The position numbers and the translations under genes are program-made. A stretch of DNA of 64,000 nt, from assembly GCA_051362555.1 (NCBI GenBank), contig CM120646.1:8866001-8930000 (forward strand). Reading direction: 5' to 3'. Shown one piece after another: positions 10,501-56,338 of the stretch. The stretch's first letter is position 1, and every line of letters starts with the position of its first letter. The stretch is from Lingula anatina. Its lineage: Eukaryota; Animalia; Brachiopoda. The notes under the pieces are model-generated. The model was given only the letters and a program-made list of their open reading frames with translations. It did no database searches and was not told the origin of the DNA.

Positions 10501-12318
10501 CAATAAGTATGTTGCAATGCACAATGGTGAAAATAAAATGTGAAATACTCTAAAACTAACATGGATATGCCCATGGTCACTACTGAACTTGAATAGGAAG
10601 TCATATATTGGCATCTTAACTGTGACCTTGAATTTCACCTACTTTTCCAAAGCAATTGCTTTATTTTTATGTACAGACACAGATGTGTGTGTATACATAT
10701 AGCTGTCACCTGCATCTGTCGTCGCCGTCTGCATCATCGTCGCTGTGCACTTTCACCGATAACACGATAAGTGGAAAACTGTTTTACGGGTACCTTTTGT
10801 CTTAAAACTTAGGATGAATATTCGTAATATGCAGGTCGCGTTTTAAAATCAGCTTGATCAGACCATTTATTCAAAAGTTATGTTGTTTTTTCACTTTTTT
10901 CAGCATATATGCAATAGCGATAACACAATAAGTAGAAAAATGTACCTTTGGGCTTTAAACTTACGAAACTGATGAATATTCAGAATATTCAGGATGAGCT
11001 TGAAAATCAGCATGATCGGGCCATTTTGTTAAAATATATGCTGTTTTTTCGCTTGTTACAGCATATATGCCACACTGATAACACGATAAGTGGAAAATCC
11101 TTTTACTTTTAGCTTTAAACTTACAGAACTGATGTACATTCATAAAATACAGGTTGAGTTAAAAAATCAGCTTGATCAGACCATTTTAACAAAAGTTATA
11201 CTGTTTTTTCCTTTTTTCAGCATATAAATGCAACATTGATAACACATTTCAAGGAAAACTGATAGGCCTATTGTCTTGCAACTCACAGGAGTGATCAATC
11301 TTACTAATATACAAATTAAGTTCAAAAGTAAGCTTGATCGATTAAGTTATACTGAAGTAATGCCTTTCTTTGTATGTATCAAGTTTTTTCCTCAGATTTT
11401 TAAAATTCTTACCCATGTTAACAGTCTGATCATTGACCTAATTAGGTATGTAAAAGTGTTCTTTTGACATTTTCTGCATCTTAACAATATTGTTATGTGA
11501 TTATTTAAAAATGACGGTAAACCTGTTATCGTATATTGTATAATAAAGTATCAAAAATGGAATGAACTCATATCATTGCATTTTGTCAGATTCAACTGTG
11601 AACTTGAACTCTCATGGGCCTGAAGCTTTATGCTTTTACTTTCATCAGTATTATCTGTTGTGCATAATTAAAATTTGTTGACTCTGCAGTTAAGCATGTA
11701 TTATTGCATCAGAATCCTATTTTGTGCATTATTATTTTCTGCTTTTTGTCTGTACATTAGGCAGCTTTGCTGCCTTGTTTTGTTTTCCAAACGAAACTGC
11801 AGCTGGTGGCACAATACCCGGAGGCAGTATCGCCTCTCTGATCCTTAAGTTGATTTTAAGAGATAATTCCATGCAGTACAATTATTTGGCATGGTACAAT
11901 TATGGATTTTTGGACATTTTTCCACATGGTGCAATTATTCAGACTGTGCAGTGATTAATGTTTGGACAATTTCCACATTACAATTATTTGGACAGTTCAG
12001 TTATTTGAAACTTGATAGTAATTGTAGAATGCATTTATCTTTTTCAGATGAAAATTTCATCATCAAGCATGACCGTCCCTTTCTTCTGTCCATGGCAAAC
12101 CGTGGTAAAGATACCAATGGATCGCAATTCTTTATGTGAGTATTTGAAAATGTAATCTTAAACCAAAAAGGCTATTTTTCCCTTAGAAGAAATATCTCGT
12201 ATTGTAATTGAAGGTGTACATTATCTCATCGTTTTAGAAATTAAAATACTTAAGTGCTGTAATACTGTAAAGTGAGTTTGTTTGTCTGTTTGCAATATTA
12301 TGCAAAAGTTTTGGACGA

Positions 12319-12363
<45 letters not shown>

Positions 12364-27300: not shown

Positions 27301-28029
27301 ACATTGTCACGAAGGAAATATACTTAAAACTTACTAATATGTTGAGACACTTTAAAGGAAGCAGGTTGTCAATAAGTTTCAGAAAACCACATAAAGCAGT
27401 GTCAAAGACACTATTGCATGGTGGATCAAAGTGGTCTTAATAAGATCAGGAATAGATACTGTGAAGGGTGATGCTCATAGTGTGAGTGCAGCATCAGCCT
27501 CTAAGGTTATAATGAAATAGGCTGGTTGGTCAAATTAGAATATGTTCCATAACAAAGAAATAGTTGAAAATGACGTAGTGAAAGTTGCACTTATATTAGG
27601 TAAGTGAACTTTAGTCAGTTTATTTATAAACTGTTTATGTGTTTGATGAATAACCAATAAAGTCTTTCTTTATGAATTTAAACATGAGTTCATGTTTCAT
27701 TTTGCATGATATATGCCTTAAAGTCTCATTTCATGATGAACCAATATAATTGTTCGATATAGAATTAAAAAATTAAACGAAACTTACCCGTAAGTTGATG
27801 TTTGATTGTAATTCTATGAGACAACTATGGGTGAGGAGATGAAATGCCTCTCCCACCCTTCCTTATTACATAAACTTATGATAATAGTGATGTGGATTAT
27901 TATCAAAAAATGAAGTTTAATAAAAACTTCTGAAGAAATCATGCAGAAATGCTTCAAAACCTGACGCGCATGCGCACTGTGCATTCTCATTTCAATTTTC
28001 AGTTTTTCGCCAATTTTCAGCATATCTGT

Positions 28030-28081
<52 letters not shown>

Positions 28082-40000: not shown

Positions 40001-41036
40001 ATGTGGGTAGTTTATTTTGAGACGGGGAAGGTCTTTATGGCATTATCTTATATAATACTGTTGTAAATTTTTCTAAAATCTTAAAAGTCTGTGTCCACTG
40101 ATTGGTTTCTCCATGTGTTAGAAAAGTCTCAAAATAAGTTTTTCACTGTTTTAGTCCATGACTGCTTGTTAACATTTAATAGTTGCTTGAATATTTTTAT
40201 ATTCATCTAGTAGGCCTTTTCATAAATACAATGCAGTAGTACACACATCCACTGTTTATTCCTCTCAAAATAAGTGTAAACATAAATGAAAAAATGTATA
40301 GCATTTACAGAGTATGAGGGTAGGTAACTGTGCAGAATGATTATTTCAAACAATATTTCTTAGGTTTATATTGAGTCTCCATTTTTACAACAAGCCCATA
40401 GTATATGGTATTCAAGCTAGAATGTAAACTAAGCAGATTTGTAGATGATAACTAGTTCAACTGTGTAAAAATGTGTAATTGATAGACGCTTGTTGCAGAA
40501 ATAGGGAATCAGTGTTTTGCTGATTTAACTTGTCATCCAGATCATCATCTTTTGGGCTGAGAAAATCTTTTTTTTACCCCTTTGGAAACAGAATGAGTTT
40601 CTAATACAGGGTAGTAGCATTCTTATAACTTTACTGTGCCTTTAAATGTAGTACACATTGATTTGAGAGTGTCATTATTAAAGGTAACCATCAACACCAC
40701 ACTTCAGCAACTTTTAGAAGAGATTAGTTCATTTTCCCTGTCCCCATATTAAGAGGTATGTTTGATTAATAAAGGGATTAAGCTTAATTGCTTTCAAGCA
40801 GACAGTCAGTCTATCCCACCCAGCTGTAAGTTGACTTAACTTGTGTATATTCCCTTTGAAGATTTATTATAATGTCTAAATTCATCATCCATACAAGGGA
40901 TGAACAATTTAAATATTTATTAATGGAAGGATTTTATTTAAATAAATTGTGAAAGTAGCTTTTTGTATGTGATGTACAACAAACAAGTGGTTGAAAAGTG
41001 TTATTCATTCTGTATAACTTCAGTGAGGTAAATTTG

Positions 41037-41088
<52 letters not shown>

Positions 41089-44000
41089 AACATGTTAAAA
41101 CATGGAATTTTTAACCATGTCAAGGTTTAACCAAGGGTAAAGGGTAAATATGATGATATGATATGAAAGTGATATTCGTTAATAGTGAAAATGATATAAA
41201 GTGACAATTAAAATTGTCAACCACACTTGAAACACCACATATATGCTTTATTTATTCATACTTTCTGCACCAGACTGAGCTGGTGAAAATGTACATAGAT
41301 AAGGTAATAGCAGCAATAATAATAATAATGATAATAGTAATAGTAAAATACATAGATAAATAGCACCAAAATTACATATATAGGAATGTACCAATTTTTC
41401 TACTATGTGAACTTAATTTTCGTATTTATAGTAATTATTGATGGACATCATGAAGTGAAAGACGTAGCACAGTTTCTTTTGTTAAAAGCAAGGTTAAGGA
41501 ATTTGGCCAAGGAGATAATCACTGTTTCGTTTGGATTGTTCATTATAAAGTGGAATTTATCTTTGTTGTTTAAATGTGCAAAGCATGTGTGTCTGCTATG
41601 TATTATTTTAAAGAGTTCTTTTCTGTGATCTGTATACAGAGGGCAGGTAATTAAGAAGTGCTCTTCATCCTCTATAACTCAAGAGTGGCAGATTTGGCAT
41701 ATTCTATATTCGACTGGTGTTGGTTTACCCTTGACGTGGCGACCTGGTTCTATGTGCAAATTGTGGCTGCTGATTCTGAATTTGGTTAGGGTTTGACGTT
41801 TTTCTTAATCTTGTATTATATCAAGGTATTTTTCTTTCTCAAAATGAAGTTTGAAAGTTTTATACCTTCTCAATTTGACATTTTCTTGTGATATTCTACT
41901 ATGCCAAAGTTGTATACTACTGTCTCCAAGTCTAACACTAAAAATTTCCATGAAGTTTTTGTCTACTTTCTGTTTGAGCCATATGTCTCCAAACCCATTT
42001 TCTACAAGAATTTTCTTTACTCCTTCACTCCATGACATACTATGGCGTGTGTTGTGAAGGTTAGTATTTGACAGAAGATCAAAGTGTTTTAGTTCATGCA
42101 AGTATGCCCATTTTAGTAGAACACCATCATCTAAGTGTAAAATTTTGACCCAGTATTTGATTACTTGTATTTGGATTTTTGTGTAGCTTGGTAGGTACCC
42201 AAGTTCTCATCGGACAGCATAATTACAAGACTTACAATGCACCCCTAAAAGCTGCTTGCAAAATTGAAGATGTATTTTTTCTATTGGCGATTTATCATTA
42301 AATGGAGTGAAACCCCATATTTCTGCTCCATATGTTGCAACTGGGGAAATCAGTGTGTCATAAAGCTTTTCTTTTACGGAGGTGGGAATGGTACTAGCTA
42401 GAGGAAGATTGCGCTTGAGACTAAAAAAGGCCTTTTGTGCTCTGTCATGTAGATTTTGTTGTGCAGGGGCTAGCGAGCCGGATCTTGTGAAGAGGAGACC
42501 AAGGTATATGTAGCTTGTTGCTACTGTTACCAACTGGTTATGGAAATAAAAATTTTCTGTATTAACCCTAGTGTGACCATGTATTTTTCCCTTACTATTA
42601 AAAACAACAACTTTTGTCTTTTTTACGTAAACAGATAACATCCATCTGTCACAGTATTCTTCCAAACATTTTAAACTGTACTGAAGGCCTGAGGCGCTTT
42701 CCGAAAACAAAACTAGATCGTCGGCATAGAAAAGACCAGTAACAGGTTTTCCATCAAGTGATGGAGCTTTGCTTTGGGATTCATCTATAAGTCTAAGTAT
42801 GTCATCAATGTATATATTAAAAAGGAAGGGGCTCAGTGTATCTCCTTGCTTAACTCCTCTAAATGTTGGGAAAGAATCTGTCAGTCCATGAGTAGTTTTG
42901 ACACATGCGGTGGAGTTTTCGTATATTAATTTTATGTTATTGTAGAATTTTCCACCTACATCTAGATTAAGCAGTTTGAAAAGCAGACCATTCCTCCAGA
43001 CACAGTCAAAGGCCTTACTGAAATCCACAAAACATGTATACAACCGTTTTTTTGACCTTGAGAATTTTGTTATCAGGGATTTTAGTATAAATAGATTATT
43101 TGAGGTATTGTAGCCATCCCTGAATCCAGCCTGGTTAGCTATGGGAACATTCTTTTCTGTACAGAAAGCTTTCAGTCTGTTCAAGAGAAGGGAATTGTAA
43201 AGTTTGCTGACACAACTTGAGATGGAAATACCACGATAATTGTCAACCACACTAGGATCATATAAATATATACATAAAGTTTGTGTTAAATTTCTATTAC
43301 AGTTGAGTCCTGAGTATTTCCTAAGGCATAAATATTGAAATGATTTTTTTTCTGCAACTGACTCATTAGAGAGAAGTTGTGTATCTGCCAAAAGTGTAAA
43401 TGTACTTTTCATTCTTTCTATGAACTTGGGTGTTGAATTCAGATATGCCTACATAACCACATACACCAATGCATGTTCAGTTACAGAGTTACAAAAGTAC
43501 TAAAAATATGTTTTACTCACATACAATAAGTTATCTCATGGTTGTAAATGTGTAGCTGATTCCCATTCAGTTTGTAAGAGCTATGAAGCAAGAGATTCTT
43601 TTTCTATTATTTTATAGGTTAAATAGGGGAATCTAACGTAAGACTAACAGTTATCAAAGGTACCAAGTTCCTTTATTTTTTGCTTTGTTCTGTAATGAAT
43701 CTGTGTGGAAGCTAGTAGTAATTAGATTAATTTAATCTTAGCTAATTAAGATCATAGGTATTTTGTTTGAAAAAAGTCAACCTGGTACAGATATTCTGTA
43801 AAAAGAGAAGAAATGTTATCATTGCACTTCTCTTCAGTAGCCATGGCTTCCTAATTTCACTGGTTTTCTGACAACTTGATTAAAGCATATCAATACATTA
43901 TATAAAGAGTAAAACAGTAAAGAGTTTAAAGCTAGGCTGAGCAAGTTTGAACATGTTCCAAAAGTGCTATTTTCTCGTGCAAAATTTCCTCAAATTTTTA

Positions 44001-47000
44001 CTAATGATACAATCCTTAGATAATAGTGTTTTTGAGTGTATCTGTTGTCATAAATTACATCCCAGTCTAATAACTGAGCTTTGACATCTTAAGACAAATG
44101 AATGTGTCTTATTTAAACTTGTTACCATGCTCAACATTAACTCTGCAGCTATCTCCATGTTGTAAGTAAAGTCCAGATCATTCTAATCATGTCCAGTTGT
44201 ATTTTCTGTAATGTCAGGAAGATGGGCACAGCAATTTTTATGGTTTTTAAAACATTCACTATTAAATTGTTCTTATTCTTTTAAAATGGTATAAAACATT
44301 GAATCTAAGTGCAGGGTACAGGTTTACCAAGCGCTTGTACTATGAGAAAGATACTTTTTTCCCCCCATGAAAATTTCATTTGGCAAGAAAACCTTACATA
44401 TACGGATGAATATTTTATGTTGATTTTTAGTGATGCTTAAGTTCAGCTCCCAGTAGCAGTTACAAAGCACTACTTGAGGCTTTCAACCTCATCAACTTGG
44501 CAGTAAATAATAATATACTTCATTTAGAATAGTGATAAGTTAAGATGCATTTGGATTAAAGGGATAATAACTCTTTGTATGAGATCTATATTTCACAATA
44601 AAAACATTGTAAACAACTCATAGAAATATGATATATTTTGTTTTACCACAAAAATGAAGTTATAGCTATTATTCTGATATCCGAGCTTGTCATTGGACCT
44701 TGTGATCTCCATAGATGGCTATACTCTGTAATAATCTCTTTAAAAGATTATTGAAAAAAAAACTTTTTAGAAGAAAAAAAACCAACAGGGACTAACTTTG
44801 AATGTAGAAATGAATTCATTAACCATTGGTAATTATGGGGGAATTGTTGTTTGCTCAAGTCTGGGAAAATCCATTTTTTGGCCAAAACAAATAGTTATTA
44901 TCCTTTAAATGTTTTACCAAAAACCAACTGAATGCAACCATATAGTTTCAGATACTTAAAGCAATACCAAAAGACATTTTATATTACCCATAAATAATGT
45001 GTGAATGGTGTCTTTTGCCTGTTTTCTAAGCCATATATAAACAGGACTGATAAGTAGCCTAGATAAGTAGGCCAAATTTACCACCAACAAATAAAAAAGG
45101 TACATTTTAACATTTTAAGTGTTTTTTATGGGTGATAGGTGATTAATTTGGTCTGTCTTTTGCCATGTTGACTTACCTTCACTAAATACAAGTAACTAGT
45201 AGAATTGGTTTACATGGGTTACTGGGAATTCACTCTCCACTGATTCTCAATTAACATGTACCTTTATGTTTTTTTCAGTTCACTTCTTCTTAGTCATGGT
45301 AGTTTGTGGAAGGACTCTTATCATACAGTTGCACTCAAAAAAAAATACTGTTTACCACTCTTTCATTTTCTATTAGATTTTATCCCTTTTAACCAGCTTG
45401 TTATATTCTTGGCAATAAATATAGTATTTTTATTCTTTTCTAGATGCCTCGCTTGAAAAAACAAAGTTTGACTACAAGAAGGGCACTACAGAAGAAAAAG
45501 ACCAAAGAAAGTAGACAGAGGGTGGCTGAGGCAAACAGGCCTCTTACTGTGTCTGCTTCGGCAGCCACGCCCACTTCGGTGGGAACTGTGTTGTCTGTGG
45601 CTACTTCGGTAGCCACGCCCACCTCGGTGGGAACTGTGTTGTCTGTGGCTACTTCAGTAGCCACGCCCACCTCGGTGGGAACTGTGTTGCCTGTGGCTAC
45701 TTCGGTAGCCACGCCCACCTCGGTGGGAACTGAGTTGACAGAGTTTACTGAGTTGACAGAGTTTACTGAGAATACTGAGTTTACTGAGATTACTGAGACA
45801 ACTGAGATTACAATTGATTCAGATGATACTGTTCATGCAGCTCATAAAGATGCTACAGTTGATACAGATGTTACAGATGCTACAGTTGATACAGCTGTTA
45901 CCGATGCTACAGTTGATAAAGATGTTACAGTTGACACAGCTTATCCTGAAATGCCTGTCAGTTTGAGTGCCACTATTGCTGCAGATCCTTCAAGTAAGTT
46001 TATGAAATATTCAGATCCTATTGCACCATCAGATATGTCAGCCTTACTCATTAAGTCAAAGATGCCAGTCAACCCAAAGCTCTCAGCAGTACCCCACAAA
46101 TTAAAGAAAAAATCAGTTCCTTCTGAAATTCCAAAAAATGATCCCAATATAATGATTTTAAAAACATCTCTAAAACCTTCGGAAAAGAAAGTTCATGTCA
46201 GAAAACTTGATACAAGATTTAGAAAAAATTCAAAAACGGGTTTAATTGACAAAGATGCCAATTCATTTCAGTACAGAAAAGTACCTTTGACAAAACACAC
46301 TGGTAATTCCATTACCTCTGATTCCATCTCTTCCTTTTTTGATAAAACAAATTTGCACAAACCCCACATGAAAATGCTACATGATGAAATGAAGAAGCAG
46401 TTAAAATGGACAGAAGACAAACAACAAAGCAAAACTGACACAGTGAGAAAAACTCTCTTGGATAGTTCACTTATGGAAAGCAGTGGCACTGACAGAAATG
46501 TTTTGAAAAGAAAGAAGAATAAAATCAGAATGCGACTTCTTAGGTCTGATCCTAAATACAGGAAAACGGAACAAGAATCTCAGAGACTAAAGCGTTCTCA
46601 TTCTGATGTGAAGTCCAATATTCTAAAGCAAAAGCAGTTGAAAAGGTCTGATCCTCATTACAGGGAAACTGAACAAGAAGCCCAGAGACTAAAGCGTTCT
46701 CAGTTTCATATGAAGACCAATATTCTAAAGCACAAGCAGTTGAAAAGGTCTGATCCTGATTATAAATGTACTGAGAAAAACCAAAAAAGATTAAAAAGAA
46801 CTGATCCTAAGTACAGGGAAAATGAACAAGAAGCCCAGAGACTTAAACGTTCTCAGTCTGCTGTGAAGAATAATATTGTAAAGCATAAGCAGTTGAAAAG
46901 ATCTGCTCCTCATTACAGGAAAACTGAACAAGAAGCCCAGAGACTGAAGCGTTCTCAGTCGGATGTAAAGGCCAATATTGTAAAGCACAAGCAGTTAAAA

Positions 47001-50000
47001 AGGTCTGATCCTCAGTACAGGAAAACTGAACAAGAAGCTCAGAGACTGAAGCGTTCTCAGTCAGATGTAAAGGCCAATATTGTAAAGCACAAGCAGTTGA
47101 AAAGATCTGATCCTCAGTATAGGAAAACTGAACAAGAAAATCAAAGACAAAAACGTTCTCAGTCTGATGTGAAGAACAAAATTCTAAAGCATAAACGGTT
47201 GAAAAGATCTAATCCTGATTACAAAGTTACTGAGAAATACCATAAAAGGTTTAAAAGATCTGATCCCAATTTCAGAATATGTGAAAGGAAGAGTGATGCA
47301 GTTTCTAAGCGTAATAAGAGACAGAAAATCAATACTTCTCTTCAAGAATTGATACAACAGTTCCACAAAAAAGTTGCTGAAGGTTGTACTTACACATGCT
47401 GTGTATGTCAACAACTCTGGTACAGACATTCTGTCATAAATAGAGAGCCTATTTTGAATATACAGAATAATGCAGTTAATCAATGCAGAGAAGCTGGTGA
47501 TTTATTCAACAGTAATTGGATGTGTCAAACATGCGCTTCTCATTTGAAAAAGAACAAAATACCTCCATGTGCTATTGTGAATAGCATGTCATTTCCAGAA
47601 AAACCCAGTTTCTTGGATTTAAAACCTTTAGAGTGGAGATTAACTAGCCCAAGGTTAGTTTTCATGAAGCTTCATCAAGCTCCACGTGGAAAACAATACA
47701 AATTAGAAGGGAATGTTGTAAACATACCAGCAGATGTAACATCCACTGTAACAAAGTTACCAAGAACTGAGACCGACAGTTCAACAATTAAAGTTCAACT
47801 GAAAAGAAATGTGAAATTTAAGAGTTATGCATATGCTCAGAATGTAAGGCCAAACAAAGTACTTGAAGCAGCAAATTGGTTAACTGCTAATGGAAAACTG
47901 TATCAAGAAAAAGGAATAACTGTAGACCCAACATGGAAATTAGAAGATAATCCCTGCAGCTCTAGCACATTAGAACAAACGGAAAAGGGGCATACAACTG
48001 TGAATAACTTGAATGAGGAACAAATACATAACTTACTAAAAGAATTTGTTTGTGTTGAGTGCCCTTCTGATTGTAGAAATATCCAATTTTCTGAAGAAGG
48101 GCACCTTATGGATCAGGATGGTGATTTTGCAGATGAATTCTTTGTCATTTTAGACAAGCCATATAAATATGACCCATCTGTTAATGTTGACAAATTTGTG
48201 GCTACTATTCAAAGTGAAAGAAAAATCAATGGTACCTCACAACACCCTCATGTTTTAGAAGTACCTGCATTCAAATCACAAACCAGAGGCAGATCAAGAT
48301 ATCGCATGAAGACAAATAGAATCAGAGATTCTAGTAGAGTAGGAATTGAAAAACTCCTTGCTTATAAGCGTCACCATGTACTTAGAAAATACAAGCATTT
48401 GAAACTAAGTTATTATGGCTTGTTCAAAAGAAAAAAACAAGGTAAAACATGGTACTCAAGATACTTCAGGACTGTAAAAAAAATTCGACACAGAGTAAGA
48501 TATGTTTCACACTTACAAAAAGAGTTATCATACATACAGCAACGACATTTATTACCTCAGTTTTGTGAATCTGAAAATGAGGTACAACATATACAGACTG
48601 ACGATACTTTATTTTATTTTATGCCTGTAGATGCCCTGTGGCAAGAGAAAATGACTGACGAACTAAATTTACAATTGAAGCGTCCTCACAATTGGCCTGA
48701 TACTAATCATAATATTCTCTTGACAAAACCTAGCCAGTTAAAAAAAGTTATTGGAGATGGAAATTGTTTTTTTCGAAGTTTGTCTTTTGCCATTACTGGT
48801 TGTGACACATTGTACAGTGACGATCACATTATACTTAGAAACAGAATCACCAGTCATATGAAGCAGCTTGAGTATGCTTTTTCAAGTAGTATGTTAGGTG
48901 ATAATGACAGGACATCAGCAAATTATGTAAGAAGAACAGGCATGAATAATGTAAATGTTTGGGGTACTGAAACAGAAATACTTGCTGCAGCACATTTACT
49001 ACAAACTGACATCTATGTCTACTGCAAGCCTGCCAGCTCTTGGAAATGGTTAAAGTATTCAGCTAAATTTCTTGATCAGAACAATCATTCACATGAGACA
49101 GCCATTTACCTGCAAAACACTAATTCTGATCACTATGACGTAGTGCAAAATGTATGCGACTTATCATTACCTGCTAATGGCATAAGCAAGAACTTACTGC
49201 AAAAGGAGGAGGTGACACGGGCTAATTCAGGTAGAGATAAATACTCACAGTCAAATGATACTGAAGATTGGGATGAAATTGATGACAAAGAAATGAAACC
49301 TGGTATAAGAGATACAATGTTAACAGGCAGAGACTTCTTGGAAGACACAGAGAGAGAGAAAATTTACTCTTTTGCACCTGGTCAAGAGGGTCAGCCGCTC
49401 AGCATATTTAGAGATGAACACTGTGAAGAACTGGCTTTTCCAGAAATATTTCTTGGCAATGCACGGCCTGCAAATAAAAGCAGACTTGTTCCCGTACACT
49501 ACAGTGACATCTGCAAGTCTGAATTAAGACGCAATGACAGAAGAGCATCAATGTGTGTTGACAACATATTTTTTAAGGCAAAAAAATTGCAGATGAAAAG
49601 ATTGATTGGGTCAACTGCTCTTGCTGTAAGAAAACATAAAACAAATGGAAAGAAACTCACTGCAGGAGATTTTAAACAGTCTGGAGCTGTTGAGAAACTT
49701 TTACATTTTGATGAAGGTTATACATTCTTAAGAGGAGTTCGTGGTTCCCCCCCATATTTTGAGAAAGCAAAGAAAGATTTATTTGCAATGATACGCCAGC
49801 TAGGATCAGCAACTTTTTTCTGCAGTTTTTCTTCTGCTGAAACAAAATGGAATCATTTACTCAGAACTCTGGGTAAATTGGTAGATAATAAAGATTATTC
49901 AGATGCACAGCTAGAACAACTCAGTTGGGATGAAAGATGTCGCTTGATTCAGAGTGATCCTATTACTTGTGCACGACATTTTGATTATCAAGTGCAGTGT

Positions 50001-53000
50001 TTGATACATCATTTTCTGTGCCACAAGGTAGCACCATTAGGTAAAATACAAGATTTTTTCTACCGTGTAGAATTTCAACATAGAGGTAGTCCACATATTC
50101 ACATGCTTCTTTGGATAGAAAATGCACCTATATACGGTGTCAATTCTAATGAAGAAATTATACAATTTGTTGATAACACAATTTGCTGTAGCAATCCAAA
50201 TGAAGATGATCCATTAAAAGAACTTGTATCTTATCAGACACATAAACATACAAGGACATGTATAAAAAATTTGAAAAAATCTTGTAGATTCCATTTTCCT
50301 CAGCCTCCAATGAAACAAAGTGTAATTTTGACACCCCTTGATGATGCCTCTCAGAAGAAAGAATATGCAAAAATTTGGAAGCAAATTCATAATATTATAA
50401 ATGACAGAGATTTCACAGGCATTAGTCTCACATTTGAAGATTTTTTAAATAAAGTGCAAGTCTCAGAAAAAGATTATATCTTGGCAGTGAGATCTACAAT
50501 CAAGACTGATACATTGTTCCTAAAAAGACTCCCAAGTGAAATTTGGATAAACAATTATTCCAGGTCATGTTTACAAGCATGGAGAGCAAATATGGATATT
50601 CAGTTTGTTTTAGACATATATGCTTGTGCAACATATATTGTAAATTACATTTCCAAAGGACAAAGAGGCATGTCTGATTTACTTTATCAAGCTTGCAAAG
50701 AAGCTAGAGAAGGTAACAGTGACATAAAACAGCAAGTCCGTCACATTGGAAACAAATTTCTTAACAATGTTGAAATTTCTGCTCAAGAAGCTGCTTACAT
50801 CACTTTACAATTACCCATGAGAAGAGCATCTCGTTCATTTGTATTCATTAACACCACACCCCCTGAAGACAGAGTACGATTGCTTAAACCTCTGGAAGAA
50901 ATAAAAGAATTAGAAGATGAATCTGACAATATTGAGTCTAGCAATCTCTTGAAACGTTACAGCAAACGCTTACCTTCTTTAGACAATGTTTCCCTTGCAG
51001 ATTTTGCTGCATATTATGACAACAATTTAAATGTTATGAGTAGAAGCAAGAAGAAATCTTCTAGGTTATTAGATACAGATGGCATGCCCTTGGAGAAGCA
51101 CGACCTTGATAATTATGAGGATGATATTCAAGACATTCCACATGAAACAGACATTATAAAACGAAAAAAAGCAAAAATTATTCGCAGTGTTTGGTTCAGT
51201 AAGAGTTTATATCCTGAAAAACATTACCGTGAGCTTTTGATGTTGTATATTCCATGGAGAAATGAAGAATCTGACATTTTACAAAATTTCGAAAGTTATG
51301 AACAGAGATGTACACATTTGGAGAATGAGATTTGGGAACAACAGAGATTGTATTCTCCATCTCAAGATGAATTGCAAAGAGCAATGACAGATCTTAATAA
51401 CATGGATAGTGAGGATGATGATATGTGGGCCACTGTTGCACCAAATACTGAGTGTCAAAATGAAGCTGATCAATGTGAACCAAGTGATGTGGTGCAGTCT
51501 TCTGATGGTCTGTCTTATGATTTAGCAGAAGATTTGGGTATACATGTATCTGCCAAAAGTTGCACTGAAGAAGAAATTGTCAATAAAGAGATGTCTGATA
51601 TCAGTTACTTTCAAATGATTAGAAACATGAACAAACAACAGTTGGAGTTTTTCCATCATGTTTTACATTTAATCAAGTCCAATTCTGATCCGTTTCATAT
51701 ATTCCTGTCTGGAGGTGCTGGTGTAGGGAAATCATTTGTCACCCGTGCTCTATATCAGGGTATTTTGAAGCATTTGTCAAGTTTACCTGGTGAAGACTTT
51801 CGGACAATTAGAGTTGCTTTGGTTGCTCCTACAGGAAAAGCTGCTTATAATATTGGTGGCCATACAATTCACAGTTTACTGAAAATTCCAGCAAATCAAA
51901 GTTTCAAATACAAAAGACTCAGTCCTGATGTGCTAAATAGTTTCAGGTGCAAACTTGGATCACTTAAAGTTCTCTTTATTGACGAGGTTTCAATGGTTGG
52001 GAGTAAAATGTTAAGTTTCATCAATGAACGGCTCAAAGAACTGAAAAACAATGACAGACTGTTCGGAGGTGTTAGCATTGTGGCTATAGGTGACCTTTTT
52101 CAACTGAAGCCTGTGTTTGATAACTGGATATTTGAAAATCCTGACAATGACTATTGTCCATTAGCTACTAATCTGTGGCAGAAACATTTTTACATGTATG
52201 AACTGACCCAGATCATGCGTCAAAAAGACAGTAAAGAGTTTGCAGAAATTTTAAATAGGCTTAGAGAAGGAAATCATACAGACAAAGATATAAAAATTCT
52301 CAGTGAACGTCAAGTTGATAAATCAAAAACTAACCGACAACCATTACTTCATGTTTTCCAAACAAATGCACTGGTTGAACATTTCAATCATGCAAATTAT
52401 CAAAATGCAAAAGGAGAAAAATTTCAAATTGCAGCCACTGATACAATCACTGGGCCTGTACCAAAACATTTAGAAAACAATATCAGAAAGCAAATTCCAT
52501 TTGATCATAAAAAAACCATGAATTTACGAAGGATTCTGCATATTGCAGTTGGAGAAAGAACAGAAATTGTCCTGAATGTTGACACAGAAGATGGCATTAC
52601 TAATGGTGCACCAAGTGTTATTAAACTGGTAGATTTAGACAGACAAATAATTTGGGTACAATTTGATGCAGAGGACATTGGCAAAAATGCCAGAAGAATG
52701 AACAAACCGTTATACAGTAGCATTATTTCAAAAACATGGACACCTATCTTTCCTGTAAAAAGACAATTTCACCTGGGAAAAACAGGACAATATCAAGTCG
52801 TGAGAAAACAATTTCCACTACAGTTGTCTGCTGCAAAGACAATACACAGATGCCAAGGTGACACATTGAAAGAATTAGCTGTAGATCTCAGTGGTAGAAA
52901 AAATGAACACATGCATTATGTTGCACTAAGTCGTGTAGAAAAATTAGAAGGATTACATATTTTGGAATTAAATGCTGGTAAAATATGCATTTCTGAAAAA

Positions 53001-56000
53001 GTTAAACAAGAAATGAAACGTTTAAGACAAGAAGCACAACTTGTAAAATCCGTATCATTTCTATACGAACAACCAGATGACCACTTTAAAATAATTCATT
53101 GGAATTGCCGTTCTCTTCACAAATACATAGAAGATATCAGAAAGAGTTATGATGTAGAGGAAGCAGATATATGTGCTTTCACAGAAACCAGATTTGCCTC
53201 TAAAGACTTAAATGCTAAATACCAAATAAAAGGTAAATATCTACACCGAAATGATAGTTCTCTCTATAGACAGCATGGTACTGCTATCTACAGTCGCCAT
53301 AGATATGCAAAGAATTTTCCAAAAAATTACAATTCCTCCGGCATTGAGATAACTGTAACACAATTGGAACAATTTCCTGCCTTTGTCATCATCACAATTT
53401 ACAGTCCTCCTCATGGTAAAATGCAAGTTCTTCTTGAGACATTGAAGAATATTATTGGGGCTATTGATAAGGCAAACAAATGCATTATTGTAGGTGACTT
53501 TAATGTAAACTGGCTCCATGAAAAAAATGCAAGTGCCCTCAGAAAAATGATGTGTCATGACCTTCTGTTTAAGCAGTGTGTCACAACTCCAACTACCATT
53601 TATGACTCGGCCTTAGATCTTGTCTTTACAAACTTTGATCATGCAGATCTTAAAATAACAGTTTTGCCTACTTATTTTGGTGATCACTTTCCAGTCTGTA
53701 TGTCATTTCCCAAAAATTGCCTTTAAATATATAGAGGAATTGCTCCAGAGTTTTTTCAAACCTTAGTACTTCCAACAACATCTGTTTAAGACACATACAT
53801 AGCTAAACACATATATTATGCAAAAGTTTCATAGAACAATACTACAAAGAAAGCACATTAACAAAACCATAAAAATTAAACCCTTCTTTTAAAAAAGTTA
53901 CATTTATTTCTACCAATTCATGTGGAGAAACAATGCCACACCCATTTAAGTTTTGAAGAGTCATAATCCAACATATCACTCAATTCATTTGAAAAGCAGT
54001 TGATATGACACATCATCAACCAACAAATTATTCCAGTATAAATATTTTCATATTTCCTTTATTAAGCTACACTTATTAACCCTTTCACAAGAAATAGTAA
54101 CTAGCACTTCATCAAATTGGCATTTCTAACTCTTAATTACCTGTCTTCATCTGTCTTCATTTTTTTTTGTAAGTTACAGTTAGTCATACATTTTCACACA
54201 TTATTGTACTTTTCTTCACTTTTATGAAATTATACATAATATATTGCTAAATATATATTTATAACTATCATATTTTAGACAGATGATGAAGGCAAGGACA
54301 TTATCATCGTATCAGATAGAGTTGTTGTTCAAGAAGAAATGTGTCTTATCACAAGTGACTTAAAGGATGACATGAAGATGGAGAAAAGCATGGCTGAATT
54401 GTTATTTGATACCATAAAAAGTTGGTAAGGTATATACATGTACTTAAATTTACATGTATCATCCTGACCTACCCTTATTCCTCATGCTCCTCATCAGTAA
54501 CAGAGTTTACCAACAATGCCATCACAGTTTGGAAATTAAGTGGACTATGAAGAAATATACTGTGTATTTAATGTCTCTAAACATAAAGAATTTGATGGCA
54601 CATAGTTTGTTAAAATAGTTCTGTTCAGAAGGTTAGTGTAAACATGTTAAATTTCAAGAGCAGTACTACTAATTTCATGCATTAAGTTATGAACAATTTG
54701 ATGTATAGCAGTTGTAAGATAGGGTAAGTTTTAGCCAGTTTGGAGACTAAATATGAGTAGATTTTTTTTATTAATAGAATCTTTATTTAGTGCTATTTTG
54801 TACTGTTACATTCAATAAGGTAACTTCATTAAGATTTCCAGTAAAAAATTCTTAATAATACAGTAAAGATGGCCAGCTACATCTGTGTGTTAAACTAAGG
54901 TATTTGATTGGTACAAATAGTTATTTATTTTCTAGTCGGTCAAAGAGTGTAATAAAAATGTGTCACAATTTGGATATAATAGGCCCATGAAGAAAATATG
55001 TTGTCTGTTTAACACATCTAAAATTAAAGAATTTGATGGCACATAGCTTGTTAAAATTGTTCTGTTGAGAAGTTTAGTGTAAACATGTTTTCTAATTTAA
55101 AGGATTGCACAACTAACCATTTGCACCAGGTTAAGTATATAAGTGTAGAAAATGAAGTTCTTTGTAAAATAGGAGTTTTAGCCAACTTACTAGACCCGTA
55201 CTATGATGATATAATTTAGTTTTTATTATTAGAACTCTGAACTTATTCTCCCCTTTGCACTGATACAATGTCTTGTTTAACAAAGTAACTTCATGAAAAT
55301 TTCCAGCATGATTTTTTTTATAATACAGTAAAGATCATCATCTTCATCTGTGGGTTAGACTAATGTCTTTAATTGGTGCAAAAATTGTTGATATCTTTCC
55401 TTCTTAAGAGTTTTGTAAGAAGTTTCAGGTCTTTTGTTTGTCTCAGTGTTTATGTAGTATTGTAAGTGAATAAAACTTGTGCAACAAGTCAGTTCTTTGT
55501 TCATGTGTCTCTTAGTTGTCTCCTACATCTGTCCATATCATCATCATCCAGCACTTTCATTGATAACATGTTAAGTGACAAACTTTTTTACCTTTTGTCT
55601 TTAAGCTTGCAAAAACGGTGAATATTCATTAAATACTGGACAACATCAAAAGTCAGTTTCATCAAGTTGTTTTTGTTAAAGAGAGGCATTTCTTGTGAAA
55701 TATTTCATTTTCCACATATTAAAGGCGTAACTTTGCAATTCCATATGCCTGAAGACCTTTGCTTTGTAAGTGTGAACTTGAACTCTCATGGGCCTGAAGC
55801 CTTATGCTTTTACTTTCATCGGTATTACATGTTGTGCATAATTAAAACTTGATGTTGACTTTGCACTGAAGTGTAATGTATTACTGCATCAGAATTAACA
55901 GTATCCTATTTTGGGCATGATTATTTTCTGCTTTTTGTCTGTACATTTGACAGCTTTGCTGCCTTGTTTTTTTTGTCAGTACTTTTGACAGCTTTGCTGC

Positions 56001-56338
56001 CTTGTTCCTGAGTAATGTCTGAACATTTGTCAGCTTTGCTGCCTTGTTTCCTGTATTGTGTCTGCATATTTGCCAGCTTTGGTAGTTTTTTTTTTTTTTT
56101 TTTTTTTTTTACCATACAAATGCTCTTACTCCAGCTGGTGGTACAATACTCAGAGGCAGTATCGCCTTTCTGATCCTTTAGTTTTGTATTATTTAAGACC
56201 ACATCTTGTTTGATATAAATGAGTAAGTGAATTCATTGTAGCAGTGGATCCTTATCCAGGAACGGGATCAAGAGAAGGGAGGCATCAAAGCCAAGATCAG
56301 AGAGGAGCAGTAGTTATAGCATTTCCTCCTCATCCTGA
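4393..56338 (+). CDS. PPIG: Peptidyl-prolyl cis-trans isomerase G / NKTR-like SR-cyclophilin gene, 5'-truncated, spliced
   Basis: Phase-compatible GT-AG exons: 4393-4500, 9825-9869, 12048-12135, 17575-17604, 20643-20788, 28351-28513, 29474-29590, 30253-30355, 30662-30975, 32438-32482, (32758-33355/33363), 34679-34729, 56242-56338. They give a cyclophilin domain with PHLDG, the PPIG/NKTR motifs [18 protein letters not shown] and TPPHW, and an RS tail. Confidence 0.9.
4512..5005 (+). mobile_element. Helentron-derived non-autonomous fragment (family B) with ~150-bp tandem units
   Basis: About three AAGTGGAAAAC...CAGGTCAAGTTC...CAGCATATATGCAACA units, shared with copies at 6752, 10667, 18376 and 35500. 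Confidence 0.7.
5968..6430 (+). mobile_element. hAT transposase remnant (ZNF862-like TTF Zn finger plus start of catalytic domain)
   Basis: Frameshifted reading gives [45 protein letters not shown] and [13 protein letters not shown]. Confidence 0.7.
6752..8307 (+). mobile_element. Non-autonomous Helentron (HINE/DINE-like) mosaic: family-B 5' end with family-A 3' end
   Basis: 5' hairpin TGTACAGACA-cagatg-TGTCTGTACA, (GTC)n microsatellite, ~150-bp units, a second 5' hairpin at 7337, and 3' GAGGCaatatcGCCTC hairpin ending CTAGTT. Confidence 0.75.
9309..9668 (-). mobile_element. Decayed inverted copy of the MITE at 21765-22432
   Basis: Starts CACCCTGAGCTT; 9565-9665 is the reverse complement of about 21830-21930. 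Confidence 0.55.
9825..9869 (+). CDS. PPIG: PPIG exon ([15 protein letters not shown])
   Basis: ttttag acceptor, GTAATA donor; canonical cyclophilin motif. Confidence 0.95.
10667..11851 (+). mobile_element. Non-autonomous Helentron mosaic (family-B 5' end, family-A 3' end)
   Basis: TTATGTACAGACACAGATG start, ~150-bp units, and GCTGGTGGCACAATA...GAGGCagtatcGCCTC end. Confidence 0.72.
12048..12135 (+). CDS. PPIG: PPIG exon ([29 protein letters not shown])
   Basis: ttttcag acceptor, GTGAGT donor. Confidence 0.95.
13359..15752. mobile_element. PIF/Harbinger-like non-autonomous element nested in Helentron copy 1
   Basis: TIRs GCCCCGTATGCACAAAA / TTTTGTGCATGCGGGGC with CTG on both flanks (3-bp CWG TSD); absent at the homologous site of copy 2. 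Confidence 0.75.
15880..17140. repeat. 146-bp tandem satellite inside Helentron copy 1 (~8 diverged units)
   Basis: Unit CTCCAAAACTGGCAGAGATAGGTCCATAGTTACTATTGAACTTGAATAGGAAGTC...TGACCTTTGACCTAC. Confidence 0.92.
17575..17604 (+). CDS. PPIG: PPIG 30-nt exon ([10 protein letters not shown])
   Basis: caatag acceptor, GTAAGT donor; His at the CypA W121 position, as in PPIG/NKTR. Confidence 0.93.
18376..20190 (+). mobile_element. Non-autonomous Helentron, family B
   Basis: Perfect 5' hairpin TGTACAGACA/TGTCTGTACA, ~150-bp units, body shared with 7560-7900, 8310-8830 and 36600-37290. Confidence 0.75.
20643..20788 (+). CDS. PPIG: PPIG exon ([15 protein letters not shown]...[14 protein letters not shown])
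   Basis: tgtag acceptor, GTAAGA donor; end of the cyclophilin domain. Confidence 0.95.
21765..22432. mobile_element. MITE with ~77-bp TIRs and 8-bp TSD (hAT- or P-superfamily)
   Basis: CACCCTGAGCTTCAGAGC... / ...GCTCTGAAGCTCAGGGTG; GCGAAGTT at both 21757-21764 and 22433-22440. Confidence 0.9.
22969..25756 (+). mobile_element. Non-autonomous Helentron, family A, copy 2 (young)
   Basis: Perfect subTIRs TATTGTACCACCAGC / GCTGGTGGTACAATA, 5' and 3' hairpins, (CCGGCTCCG)n, homogeneous satellite, CTAG end; inserted in a T-run of the DIRS element. Confidence 0.92.
23980..25550. repeat. 146-bp tandem satellite (~11 near-identical units)
   Basis: Units recur at a 146-bp period; they explain the repeated minus-strand pseudo-ORFs. 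Confidence 0.95.
26760..27560 (+). pseudogene. DIRS tyrosine recombinase remnant
   Basis: [79 protein letters not shown] and AGWS, broken by stops and frameshifts. Confidence 0.85.
28351..28513 (+). CDS. PPIG: PPIG exon, Ser/Glu- and Lys-rich segment
   Basis: cttgtag acceptor, GTAAGT donor; open in the expected phase ([13 protein letters not shown]...[13 protein letters not shown]). Confidence 0.88.
29474..29590 (+). CDS. PPIG: PPIG exon ([19 protein letters not shown])
   Basis: catcag acceptor, GTAATA donor; conserved PPIG/NKTR motif. Confidence 0.9.
29906..30112. repeat. Two-copy ~104-bp tandem duplication
   Basis: AAAAAAATATACAATGTATGTAG...CTGCAGTxCATAATTT occurs twice, nearly identical. 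Confidence 0.85.
30253..30355 (+). CDS. PPIG: PPIG exon (…[14 protein letters not shown])
   Basis: ctgtag acceptor, GTAGGT donor; conserved SGRKIKGRG. Confidence 0.9.
30662..30975 (+). CDS. PPIG: PPIG exon ([22 protein letters not shown]…)
   Basis: ttttaag acceptor; conserved TPPHW. The donor GTGTCT at 30976 is weak but phase-compatible. Confidence 0.85.
32438..32482 (+). CDS. PPIG: PPIG exon ([14 protein letters not shown])
   Basis: tttctag acceptor, GTAAGC donor; phase 2-2. Confidence 0.85.
32758..33355 (+). CDS. PPIG: PPIG RS-domain exon ending in TAG
   Basis: gtctcag acceptor in phase 2; about 13 copies of [13 protein letters not shown]; stop at 33353-33355. Confidence 0.8.
32815..33310 (+). 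repeat. 39-bp coding minisatellite (13-aa RS repeat)
   Basis: AGATCTAGGTCAAGGAAGTCGAGGTCACCTTCAGAAGAG unit with a 39-bp period. Confidence 0.9.
34679..34729 (+). CDS. PPIG: PPIG exon ([16 protein letters not shown])
   Basis: ttttgcag acceptor, GTTTGT donor; open only in phase 2; R/S-rich. Confidence 0.7.
38100..40520. repeat. Diverged two-copy tandem duplication (~38100-39400 and ~39520-40520)
   Basis: Shared blocks such as TCTTCCTCTGTTTCTTCCAGCT...AATGTAAGTA and TATAGCATTTACAGAGTATGAGGGT. Confidence 0.8.
41400..43265 (-). mobile_element. 5'-truncated, decayed non-LTR retrotransposon (LINE ORF2: RT plus C-terminal Zn knuckle; RTE-X/CR1-group-like)
   Basis: [26 protein letters not shown] and YADD, then [13 protein letters not shown] and CQIC...[10 protein letters not shown] in the same frame. 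In-frame stops at 42207, 41805 and about 41680. Confidence 0.92.
45444..53726 (+). CDS. Helentron RepHel transposase, 2760 aa: repeats - Zn finger - OTU protease - HUH Rep - Pif1 helicase - APE endonuclease
   Basis: Zn finger CCVC...CQTC (47397-47535). [25 protein letters not shown] (48753-49145). Rep [15 protein letters not shown] (50070) and YIVNYISK. Helicase GGAGVGKS (51711), APTGKAA, DEVSM, GDLFQL, TIHRCQG, YVALSRV. Endonuclease WNCRSL, TET, GDFN, LDLVF, GDH (53090-53726). Confidence 0.96.
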   Translation: MPRLKKQSLTTRRALQKKKTKESRQRVAEANRPLTVSASAATPTSVGTVLSVATSVATPTSVGTVLSVATSVATPTSVGTVLPVATSVATPTSVGTELTEFTELTEFTENTEFTEITETTEITIDSDDTVHAAHKDATVDTDVTDATVDTAVTDATVDKDVTVDTAYPEMPVSLSATIAADPSSKFMKYSDPIAPSDMSALLIKSKMPVNPKLSAVPHKLKKKSVPSEIPKNDPNIMILKTSLKPSEKKVHVRKLDTRFRKNSKTGLIDKDANSFQYRKVPLTKHTGNSITSDSISSFFDKTNLHKPHMKMLHDEMKKQLKWTEDKQQSKTDTVRKTLLDSSLMESSGTDRNVLKRKKNKIRMRLLRSDPKYRKTEQESQRLKRSHSDVKSNILKQKQLKRSDPHYRETEQEAQRLKRSQFHMKTNILKHKQLKRSDPDYKCTEKNQKRLKRTDPKYRENEQEAQRLKRSQSAVKNNIVKHKQLKRSAPHYRKTEQEAQRLKRSQSDVKANIVKHKQLKRSDPQYRKTEQEAQRLKRSQSDVKANIVKHKQLKRSDPQYRKTEQENQRQKRSQSDVKNKILKHKRLKRSNPDYKVTEKYHKRFKRSDPNFRICERKSDAVSKRNKRQKINTSLQELIQQFHKKVAEGCTYTCCVCQQLWYRHSVINREPILNIQNNAVNQCREAGDLFNSNWMCQTCASHLKKNKIPPCAIVNSMSFPEKPSFLDLKPLEWRLTSPRLVFMKLHQAPRGKQYKLEGNVVNIPADVTSTVTKLPRTETDSSTIKVQLKRNVKFKSYAYAQNVRPNKVLEAANWLTANGKLYQEKGITVDPTWKLEDNPCSSSTLEQTEKGHTTVNNLNEEQIHNLLKEFVCVECPSDCRNIQFSEEGHLMDQDGDFADEFFVILDKPYKYDPSVNVDKFVATIQSERKINGTSQHPHVLEVPAFKSQTRGRSRYRMKTNRIRDSSRVGIEKLLAYKRHHVLRKYKHLKLSYYGLFKRKKQGKTWYSRYFRTVKKIRHRVRYVSHLQKELSYIQQRHLLPQFCESENEVQHIQTDDTLFYFMPVDALWQEKMTDELNLQLKRPHNWPDTNHNILLTKPSQLKKVIGDGNCFFRSLSFAITGCDTLYSDDHIILRNRITSHMKQLEYAFSSSMLGDNDRTSANYVRRTGMNNVNVWGTETEILAAAHLLQTDIYVYCKPASSWKWLKYSAKFLDQNNHSHETAIYLQNTNSDHYDVVQNVCDLSLPANGISKNLLQKEEVTRANSGRDKYSQSNDTEDWDEIDDKEMKPGIRDTMLTGRDFLEDTEREKIYSFAPGQEGQPLSIFRDEHCEELAFPEIFLGNARPANKSRLVPVHYSDICKSELRRNDRRASMCVDNIFFKAKKLQMKRLIGSTALAVRKHKTNGKKLTAGDFKQSGAVEKLLHFDEGYTFLRGVRGSPPYFEKAKKDLFAMIRQLGSATFFCSFSSAETKWNHLLRTLGKLVDNKDYSDAQLEQLSWDERCRLIQSDPITCARHFDYQVQCLIHHFLCHKVAPLGKIQDFFYRVEFQHRGSPHIHMLLWIENAPIYGVNSNEEIIQFVDNTICCSNPNEDDPLKELVSYQTHKHTRTCIKNLKKSCRFHFPQPPMKQSVILTPLDDASQKKEYAKIWKQIHNIINDRDFTGISLTFEDFLNKVQVSEKDYILAVRSTIKTDTLFLKRLPSEIWINNYSRSCLQAWRANMDIQFVLDIYACATYIVNYISKGQRGMSDLLYQACKEAREGNSDIKQQVRHIGNKFLNNVEISAQEAAYITLQLPMRRASRSFVFINTTPPEDRVRLLKPLEEIKELEDESDNIESSNLLKRYSKRLPSLDNVSLADFAAYYDNNLNVMSRSKKKSSRLLDTDGMPLEKHDLDNYEDDIQDIPHETDIIKRKKAKIIRSVWFSKSLYPEKHYRELLMLYIPWRNEESDILQNFESYEQRCTHLENEIWEQQRLYSPSQDELQRAMTDLNNMDSEDDDMWATVAPNTECQNEADQCEPSDVVQSSDGLSYDLAEDLGIHVSAKSCTEEEIVNKEMSDISYFQMIRNMNKQQLEFFHHVLHLIKSNSDPFHIFLSGGAGVGKSFVTRALYQGILKHLSSLPGEDFRTIRVALVAPTGKAAYNIGGHTIHSLLKIPANQSFKYKRLSPDVLNSFRCKLGSLKVLFIDEVSMVGSKMLSFINERLKELKNNDRLFGGVSIVAIGDLFQLKPVFDNWIFENPDNDYCPLATNLWQKHFYMYELTQIMRQKDSKEFAEILNRLREGNHTDKDIKILSERQVDKSKTNRQPLLHVFQTNALVEHFNHANYQNAKGEKFQIAATDTITGPVPKHLENNIRKQIPFDHKKTMNLRRILHIAVGERTEIVLNVDTEDGITNGAPSVIKLVDLDRQIIWVQFDAEDIGKNARRMNKPLYSSIISKTWTPIFPVKRQFHLGKTGQYQVVRKQFPLQLSAAKTIHRCQGDTLKELAVDLSGRKNEHMHYVALSRVEKLEGLHILELNAGKICISEKVKQEMKRLRQEAQLVKSVSFLYEQPDDHFKIIHWNCRSLHKYIEDIRKSYDVEEADICAFTETRFASKDLNAKYQIKGKYLHRNDSSLYRQHGTAIYSRHRYAKNFPKNYNSSGIEITVTQLEQFPAFVIITIYSPPHGKMQVLLETLKNIIGAIDKANKCIIVGDFNVNWLHEKNASALRKMMCHDLLFKQCVTTPTTIYDSALDLVFTNFDHADLKITVLPTYFGDHFPVCMSFPKNCL
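45553..45731 (+). repeat. 48-bp coding tandem repeat ([16 protein letters not shown]) built from short hairpins
   Basis: GCCACGCCCAC at 45564, 45612, 45660 and 45708. Confidence 0.9.
46530..47275 (+). repeat. Basic ~40-aa (120-bp) coding repeats, [25 protein letters not shown]
   Basis: About six units visible in both DNA and protein. Confidence 0.9.
54545..55385. repeat. Diverged two-copy ~430-bp tandem duplication
   Basis: AAAGAATTTGATGGCACATAGxTTGTTAAAAT and TAATACAGTAAAGAT...CATCTGTG each occur twice in the same order. Confidence 0.7.
56242..56338 (+). CDS. PPIG: PPIG terminal coding exon ([32 protein letters not shown])
   Basis: cattgtag acceptor in phase 2 continuing 34729; R/S-rich; AATAAA downstream at 56776. 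Confidence 0.7.

What the first reader, a model, noticed from the sequence alone, without database searches (positions are those of the whole stretch)
41400..53726. 8.3-kb transposase ORF is pristine while the LINE nested in the same element is decayed
Seen: no stop or frameshift in 2760 codons and all catalytic motifs present. The LINE inside the element has at least 3 in-frame stops in about 1.9 kb, and the element ends are degenerate (5' hairpin partly deleted, TTAG instead of CTAG). Inferred: either the ORF is under purifying selection at this locus (a domesticated nested gene), or an active master lineage carries dead LINE and older repeats as cargo.
Basis: partly seen in the sequence, partly recalled or inferred. 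Interest (0 to 1): 0.72.

Follow-up and report, generated by a model that had tools for sequence, protein, structure and literature searches.

The report
Intact Helentron with one-copy retroelement passenger
An unbroken 8.3-kb rolling-circle transposon (Helentron) gene has several related copies in the same animal species, and the broken retroelement beside it is missing from some related versions, so this is likely an ordinary transposon lineage carrying a dead passenger rather than a gene tamed by the host.

Summary
Observation confirmed: 45444-53726 is an unbroken 2760-codon Helentron (HLE2) transposase (DUF6570, OTU, Rep, PIF1, AP endonuclease). A 5'-truncated LINE at about 41239-43259 (-) has three premature stops. 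The contrast exceeds equal neutral decay (p about 0.004, post hoc). The ORF is not unique: contigs 6-9% different, without gaps, lie 5-7 times deeper than window-identical ones. Non-coding DNA on both sides of the LINE also has several versions, and LINE-free joints occur in 3 of 4 DNA runs, so the LINE is not family-wide cargo. Window-type letters were seen in two runs of one study and not in two others; RNA over the ORF is about 0.1-1 RPKM in three libraries. Domestication is unlikely (~0.07). Best reading: a low-copy autonomous Helentron whose sublineage acquired a LINE, probably in an intron, while transposition kept the ORF under selection. The 'degenerate ends' exist but may belong to short independent HINEs. 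The scan has noted an intact Helentron in another genome (e1-9961036) and a one-copy nested-cargo case in this genome (e1-10624423). New member of a known kind.

The parts
45444..53726 (+). Helentron (HLE2) transposase ORF, 2760 aa, unbroken
45547..47266 (+). N-terminal low-complexity repeats and 34-aa (102-nt) basic repeats; relatives show in-frame net deletions of 63 and 87 nt here
47550..47930 (+). DUF6570 (HLE2 marker), preceded by two CxxC motifs
48753..49133 (+). OTU-like cysteine protease domain
49686..50650 (+). HUH Rep endonuclease (motif 2 RGSPHIH, motif 3 YIVNY)
51627..52930 (+). PIF1-family helicase
53097..53696 (+). AP-type endonuclease, C-terminal
45428..45443 (+). pyrimidine tract plus AG directly before the ATG: splice-acceptor-like, so the 5' interior is likely an intron (no spliced read seen)
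   Evidence: sequence; one search shows no such joint among the rows listed
41239..43259 (-). 5'-truncated LINE (RT plus C-terminal region), three premature stops at 42209, 41807, 41681; 6 letters (CATATA) fit both sides of the empty-site joint
44556..44909 (.). high-copy MITE with terminal inverted repeats, TTAA at both edges
37935..54400 (.). stretch for which several diverged versions (6-12%) exist in the DNA runs: minimal extent of the repeated unit
34849..35381 (+). 5' arm of a HINE family (subTIR TATTGTACC..., hairpin shortened); candidate 5' end, link to ORF not shown
35500..37290 (+). copy of a second HINE family with 158-nt central repeats, 5' hairpin missing
55513..56181 (+). decayed composite HINE (second-family body, then first-family 3' subTIR, hairpin and TTAG); candidate 3' end, link to ORF not shown
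4449..33355 (+). neighbouring host gene: cyclophilin-domain exons and RS-rich exons (PPIG-like; name recalled), upstream of the element

Best explanation
This is an intact Helentron transposase gene with several related copies in the species, and the LINE beside it likely entered one sublineage as a passenger that decayed while continued transposition likely kept the gene under selection. Shown: domain order, intact frame, related ORFs 6-9% different without frame breaks, LINE-free versions of the flanking DNA, neutral-looking changes in the LINE. From established knowledge of Helitron-like elements: Rep nicks one end, the helicase peels off one strand up to a 3' hairpin, and everything between the ends is copied, so insertions in non-coding parts travel along. 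Inferred: the LINE and the MITE sit in an intron before the ATG exon, so they do not stop transposase production; only copies with a working ORF leave descendants, which removes stops from the ORF but not from passengers; this copy is a fairly recent, probably polymorphic product of that sublineage.
For: Domains and diagnostic motifs. Related ORF contigs at depth 670-750 against 98-138 for window-identical ones; 151 differences and 0 gaps in 2089 nt; in-frame deletions of net 63 and 87 nt. Non-coding relatives on both sides of the LINE, 409 differences in 4928 nt, gaps in 16 of 16 pieces (at least 6.8 gap events expected in the coding pieces, P(0)=0.001). LINE-free joints: 41237>43259 in X1, X3, X5; 41243>43279 and 40723>43817 (side 82) in X3. 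The 42209 stop letter is carried only at depth 46 (X1) and 97 (X2), by none of the X3 and X5 contigs laid; 6 of 23 listed LINE differences are synonymous, the neutral share. All three stops falling in the LINE has p=0.004 under equal decay. Acceptor-like sequence before the ATG.
Against: No near-identical sibling carrying the LINE was seen: window-identical contigs are about as deep as the host flank contig (88-110 against 111 in X1), which suggests one locus. The candidate ends are degenerate, which fits poorly with recent movement of a 21-kb unit. Substitution rates in coding (7.2%) and non-coding (8.3%) pieces are similar, and 8 of 13 listed ORF differences change the residue, so selection on substitutions is not shown. 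The LINE's 5' part has a relative only 3 of 303 letters different, so the LINE may be young and the contrast partly chance. Physical linkage of related ORFs to related flanks is not shown (short contigs); contig depth is not a copy number; the intron is unverified.
Confidence: 0.5

Rival explanations
1. Both parts are young and neutral: the LINE inserted into this very copy recently, and three stops against none is luck, or the stops came from an already defective LINE template; we look at this copy because its ORF happens to be open.
For: LINE 5' part only 3 of 251-303 letters from a relative, which rejects 4.5% decay there (P=0.0006); no frameshift in the LINE; the stops cluster in the 3' 760 nt; no LINE-bearing sibling seen; 13 departures at conserved columns of the transposase could include post-insertion drift.
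Against: No single age fits well: at 0.74% divergence P(>=3 LINE stops)=0.013 and P(0 ORF stops)=0.08; the 42209 stop was seen only at window-type depth, not in deeper LINE contigs. The other two stops were not among the rows shown.
Confidence: 0.25
2. A mosaic: an old LINE-containing copy (or a segmental duplication of several kb) had its ORF refreshed by gene conversion or template switching from an active relative, or a younger ORF-bearing element sits inside older repeated DNA; the HINE ends at 34.8 and 56.2 kb are unrelated neighbours.
For: Degenerate candidate ends; the composite HINE type at 55.5-56.2 kb moves alone, since a copy at 7335-8307 interrupts another HINE; no matching inverted pair plus hairpin stood out nearer the ORF.
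Against: No donor close to the window's ORF was seen: the deep relatives are 6-9% away; related versions run without a break from 38.9 to 44.5 kb, at 45344 and at 54317.
Confidence: 0.17
3. Domestication: the copy is immobile (ends decayed), has sat here long enough for the LINE to decay, and the host keeps the Rep-helicase-endonuclease protein.
For: Open 2760-codon frame beside decayed neighbours (p=0.004); degenerate ends; single-locus-like depth in X1 and X2; acceptor before the ATG, 12 kb downstream of a same-strand host gene.
Against: Several related ORFs in the same run; at 39114, 39158, 39159, 39658, 39669, 39794, 40880 and 42209 none of the X3 or X5 contigs laid has the window's letter, and their 16 longest pieces are all 6% or more different; word shares of 0.13-0.29 in 8 of 10 holders fit relatives alone; ORF RNA about 0.1, 0.2 and 1.1 RPKM, listed reads mostly with relative-type letters, no splice joint listed. 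Caveats: contigs drop variants, the RNA is from other individuals and unknown tissues, no positive-control gene lay in the stretch, and X3/X5 might hold diverged alleles of the same locus.
Confidence: 0.07

Closest known systems
Helentron (Thomas, Vadnagara and Pritham 2014, PMC4067079; passages read) = HLE2 with endonuclease (Li et al. 2024, PMC11417382; passages read)
   Same: Rep-helicase with fused C-terminal AP endonuclease, OTU, DUF6570, S in RGSPHxH and FYR before motif 2; HINE-type partners with subTIRs, 3' hairpin and central repeats in the same window
   Different: Own ends not established; no RPA gene noticed; long (about 8-10 kb) non-coding 5' part with nested elements; ATG behind an acceptor-like site
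Unnamed Helentron-type proteins of corals, sea cucumbers, an acorn worm and bivalves
   Same: Same Pfam set, 1500-3000 aa, open frames are common (468 hits among 6481 candidates)
   Different: Only 39-53% identical over the region searched; no non-coding similarity to 72 related loci
Paramecium Helitrons (PMC13085455; abstract and passages read)
   Same: [quoted passage not shown]
   Different: A separate clade, telomeric; their inherited insertions are IESs inside the ORF, not a LINE upstream
Helraiser (PDB 7LCC, HLE1)
   Same: PIF1-type helicase region matches (E 6e-14); rolling-circle mechanism (recalled, and PMC6431247 passage)
   Different: HLE1: TC...CTRR ends, A|T target, no endonuclease
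Cg_HINE elements of the Pacific oyster (PMC7492417; passages read)
   Same: Layout of the short repeats at 34.8-37.3 and 55.5-56.2 kb: 5' subTIR plus inverted repeat, microsatellite, central repeats, 3' subTIR, hairpin
   Different: Different sequences; link to an autonomous partner unresolved there as here

Membership tests
Helentron / HLE2 | Rep plus PIF1 helicase with AP endonuclease fused at the C-terminus | tested here: met
Helentron / HLE2 | Rep motif 2 signature: S in RGSPHxH and F/Y-x-R just before (PMC4067079) | tested here: met
   [15 protein letters not shown]
Helentron / HLE2 | DUF6570 and OTU upstream of Rep (PMC11417382) | tested here: met
Helentron / HLE2 | Short subterminal inverted repeats and 3' stem-loop at the element's own ends | tested here: inconclusive
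   a matching pair exists at 34849 and 56134-56181 (5' copy partly deleted) but its link to the ORF is not shown
Helentron / HLE2 | Insertion between T and T without target duplication, shown by an empty site | not testable with these tools
   no genome held; the 21.3-kb span exceeds one lay
Helentron / HLE2 | Several interspersed copies | tested here: inconclusive
   several related versions shown; their places in the genome are unknown
Canonical Helitron / HLE1 | L in RGLPHxH, no endonuclease, TC...CTRR ends | tested here: not met
Domesticated transposase gene | Single copy, set apart from a mobile family | tested here: not met
   related ORFs 6-9% different, 5-7 times deeper
Domesticated transposase gene | Fixed at the same locus in all individuals | tested here: inconclusive
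   window-type letters in X1 and X2, none listed in X3 and X5; contigs drop variants and no edge was bridged in those runs
Domesticated transposase gene | Expressed as a host transcript | tested here: inconclusive
   about 0.1-1.1 RPKM in 3 libraries of other individuals, no joint listed
Domesticated transposase gene | Synteny and dN/dS below 1 between sister species | not testable with these tools
   no related genome available; closest database proteins 53%, 67-70% in the Rep core
LINE as family-wide cargo | Related copies hold the LINE at the same site with the same stops | tested here: not met
   LINE-free joints in 3 of 4 runs; 42209 stop only at window-type depth

The most novel reading that the evidence does not exclude
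An immobilised Helentron whose complete Rep-helicase-OTU-endonuclease gene is kept by host selection at this locus (possibly spliced to upstream exons behind the cyclophilin-RS gene), with diverged LINE-free alleles in other populations: a domesticated rolling-circle transposase in an animal.
Probability: 0.07. Interest if true: 0.75.

Novelty: new member of a known kind. Interest (0 to 1): 0.22.

Why it matters
As it most likely stands it matters little: intact Helentron ORFs are common in marine invertebrates and purifying selection on them is known (PMC13085455). It is a tidy within-element control, a passenger decaying beside a selected ORF, and a candidate autonomous partner for the HINEs of this genome. 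If the domestication reading held it would be notable: my searches (listings only) turned up no demonstrated host gene derived from a Helitron-type transposase, only a hypothesis in Paramecium; those searches cover an open-access library only, and one search was uninformative.

Tried and rejected
No whole genome is held, so copies and empty host sites could not be counted. Two protein searches found no same-species relative (best 53% and 67-70%), so no dN/dS could be computed; the 13 ORF differences listed (5 synonymous) cannot separate neutral from selected (p=0.34). No RNA holder was listed (no evidence). Runs of organism B hold 0.00 of the words (no proof of absence). The poly-T at 41040-41086 as the LINE's poly-A tail: rejected, about 20 contigs per run leave for unrelated flanks at 41251. 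The 16-nt repeat 41212/43238 as target duplication: not adopted, the right copy is LINE coding sequence and the joint falls at 41237>43259. An exon chain joining the host gene across the ORF (34680, 38368, 39794, 54284): splice-like motifs only, near-zero RNA at 37935-38601, no joint among 15 of 200 listed; the 48-aa peptide at 54282 had no Atlas hit. A downstream hammerhead (lead e1-9961036): none in window 33-60 kb (one chance-level snoRNA match, E 0.26) or in 13 of 72 related loci (one tRNA only). A scan for alternative inverted ends plus hairpin gave nothing convincing. Non-coding similarity to 72 metagenome loci: none. The conserved-column test is confounded by phylogeny; the LINE gave 2 of 53. 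Supplements were not read; the Rep alignment of PMC4067079 (its Figure S3) was not seen.
Full report
Observation. The ORF is real: window 45444-53726 (+), 2760 codons, unbroken. Pfam gives DUF6570 (aa 703-829), OTU (1104-1230), Helitron_like_N (1415-1556), PIF1 (2062-2282) and an AP-type endonuclease (2552-2751), and the catalytic motifs match the majority of 60 homologues (the OTU columns were mostly gaps in that alignment and rest and the sequence). The Rep signature FYR...RGSPHIH is the Helentron one (PMC4067079, passage); DUF6570 marks HLE2 (PMC11417382, passage). Relatives with the same domain set and open frames are common: 468 hits among 6481 candidates, best 50-53% identical, named ones from corals, sea cucumbers, an acorn worm and bivalves. 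The LINE is a 5'-truncated copy on the minus strand in one frame with three premature stops (42209, 41807, 41681), at columns where homologues have residues. Weighted by opportunity for stop gain, all three stops landing in the LINE has p=0.004; this is post hoc.

Copies of the ORF. No genome is held, so I used sequencing runs (10 holders, word share 0.13-0.53). In run X1, 4 of the 8 pieces listed are window-identical (0-1 differences, depth 98-138, one reaching from host DNA across 34849) and 4 are ORF pieces 6-9% different at depth 670-750, with 151 differences and no gap in 2089 nt. Two joints at depth 552 delete a net 63 and 87 nt, both in frame, from the N-terminal repeats. Contig depth is not a copy number, but a deeper, frame-preserving sister subfamily is plain. 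The frame has therefore been kept in both lineages since they split.

Is the LINE cargo? Laying 38900-44540 on four DNA runs from three studies shows several versions of the non-coding DNA on both sides of the LINE. Of 32 pieces listed, 8 are window-identical flank pieces (X1 and X2 only), 6 are LINE pieces, 2 repeat X1's relatives in X2; the other 16 differ at 409 of 4928 letters and all 16 have gaps (the likeness cut-off was 82 here and 90). LINE-free joints appear: 41237>43259 in X1, X3 and X5, 41243>43279 in X3, and 40723>43817 in X3. The first has a short side of only 26 letters, 16 of which also match the LINE's own 5' end, so alone it is ambiguous; the last has 82 letters on its short side. 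The stop letter at 42209 is carried at depth 46 of 639 in X1 and 97 of 1081 in X2, and by no contig laid in X3 or X5. Of 23 listed differences in the LINE's coding part, 6 are synonymous, the neutral share (40 of 403 rows were shown). So the LINE came in after this lineage split from LINE-free relatives and has changed like neutral DNA. Its age is uncertain: its 5' part has a relative only 3 of 303 letters away.

Is it domesticated? At eight listed places none of the X3 or X5 contigs has the window's letter, and their 16 longest pieces are all 6% or more different. Word shares of 0.13-0.29 in 8 of 10 holders are what relatives at 6-9% plus a common MITE would give. Three RNA libraries of the same species label (6, 6 and 25% of each run read) give mean depths of 0.19, 0.25 and 1.83 over the ORF, about 0.1, 0.2 and 1.1 RPKM, the listed reads mostly carry relative-type letters, and no splice joint is among the 15 of 200 joints shown. 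Against my reading: window-identical contigs are about as deep as the host flank, so no near-identical sibling is visible; contigs drop variants; the RNA is from other individuals; X3 and X5 could hold diverged alleles of the same locus; coding and non-coding substitution rates are similar (7.2 and 8.3%) and 8 of 13 listed ORF differences are non-synonymous; the protein departs at 13 of 331 near-invariant columns.

Ends. The 5' end at 34849 has lost part of its hairpin and the 3' end at 56181 reads TTAG. They bracket all the DNA that has related versions (at least 37.9-54.4 kb), so a 21.3-kb element is possible. But 55513-56181 is a decayed copy of a composite HINE that moves alone: a copy at 7335-8307 interrupts another HINE. 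CTRR defines HLE1, not HLE2. The ends are unresolved.

Mechanism. From established knowledge (PMC6431247 and PMC4067079, passages read): Rep nicks, the helicase displaces one strand to a hairpin terminator, and all DNA between the ends is copied; the endonuclease may nick the T-rich target (the authors' hypothesis). Here the ATG follows a pyrimidine tract and AG, so the 5' interior with the LINE and a TTAA-flanked MITE (44556-44909) is likely an intron, where insertions do no harm to the transposase. Copies with working ORFs leave the descendants, so stops are purged from the ORF and not from passengers. I give this 0.5; young-and-lucky 0.25; mosaic or segmental duplication 0.17; domestication 0.07.

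Comparison and verdict. It works like, and by protein features is, a Helentron/HLE2; the terminal features were inconclusive. Long Helitron ORFs under purifying selection are in print (PMC13085455, abstract and passages), as are polymorphic Helitron insertions (PMC12001565, passages). An earlier unchecked note calls this genome a brachiopod's; I did not test that. The clade name of the LINE (RTEX-like) and the name PPIG-like for the neighbouring cyclophilin-RS gene are recalled, not from a call. New member of a known kind; interest 0.22.

Noticed in passing
window 41212-41227 and 43238-43253: The LINE's truncated 5' end (coding sequence) is identical over 16 nt to target DNA just outside its 3' end; it may have guided annealing and truncation during insertion.
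   Followed up: partly
window 44556-44909: Very high-copy MITE with terminal inverted repeats and TTAA at both edges (Kolobok-like termini; name recalled).
   Followed up: partly
window 7335-8307, 10660-11851, 55513-56181: Composite HINE with the 5' end of one family and the 3' end of another behind its own 3' end: looks like terminator bypass fixed as a new mobile unit; the 7335 copy interrupts another HINE.
   Followed up: partly
window 4449-33355 (+): Host gene with cyclophilin-domain exons and RS-rich exons, including an 11-copy 39-nt RS repeat at 32813-33256.
   Followed up: partly
window 38148-38634 / 39592-40099, 39179-39397 / 40295-40516, 54494-54917 / 54936-55382: Old internal duplications (68-80% alike); the first pair includes an exon-like piece with acceptor and donor motifs (38368-38404, 39794-39854).
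   Followed up: partly
window 54284-54428: Exon-like 48-codon piece behind the ORF, with a few RNA reads of relative type in X16 and X19; no Atlas hit.
   Followed up: partly
window 60577-62420: Foldback element: two inverted arrays of a 184-nt unit.
   Followed up: no
window 58521-58809: 57-nt inverted repeat pair, 96% complementary, MITE-like.
   Followed up: no
LINE family in run X19: The LINE family is transcribed at depth about 14-28 over 41270-43270 from other copies, more than the Helentron ORF.
   Followed up: no
L036, L047: Related coral-metagenome Helentron loci whose longest open frame is a different 1381-aa ORF beside a partial transposase match: probably another nested element.
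   Followed up: no
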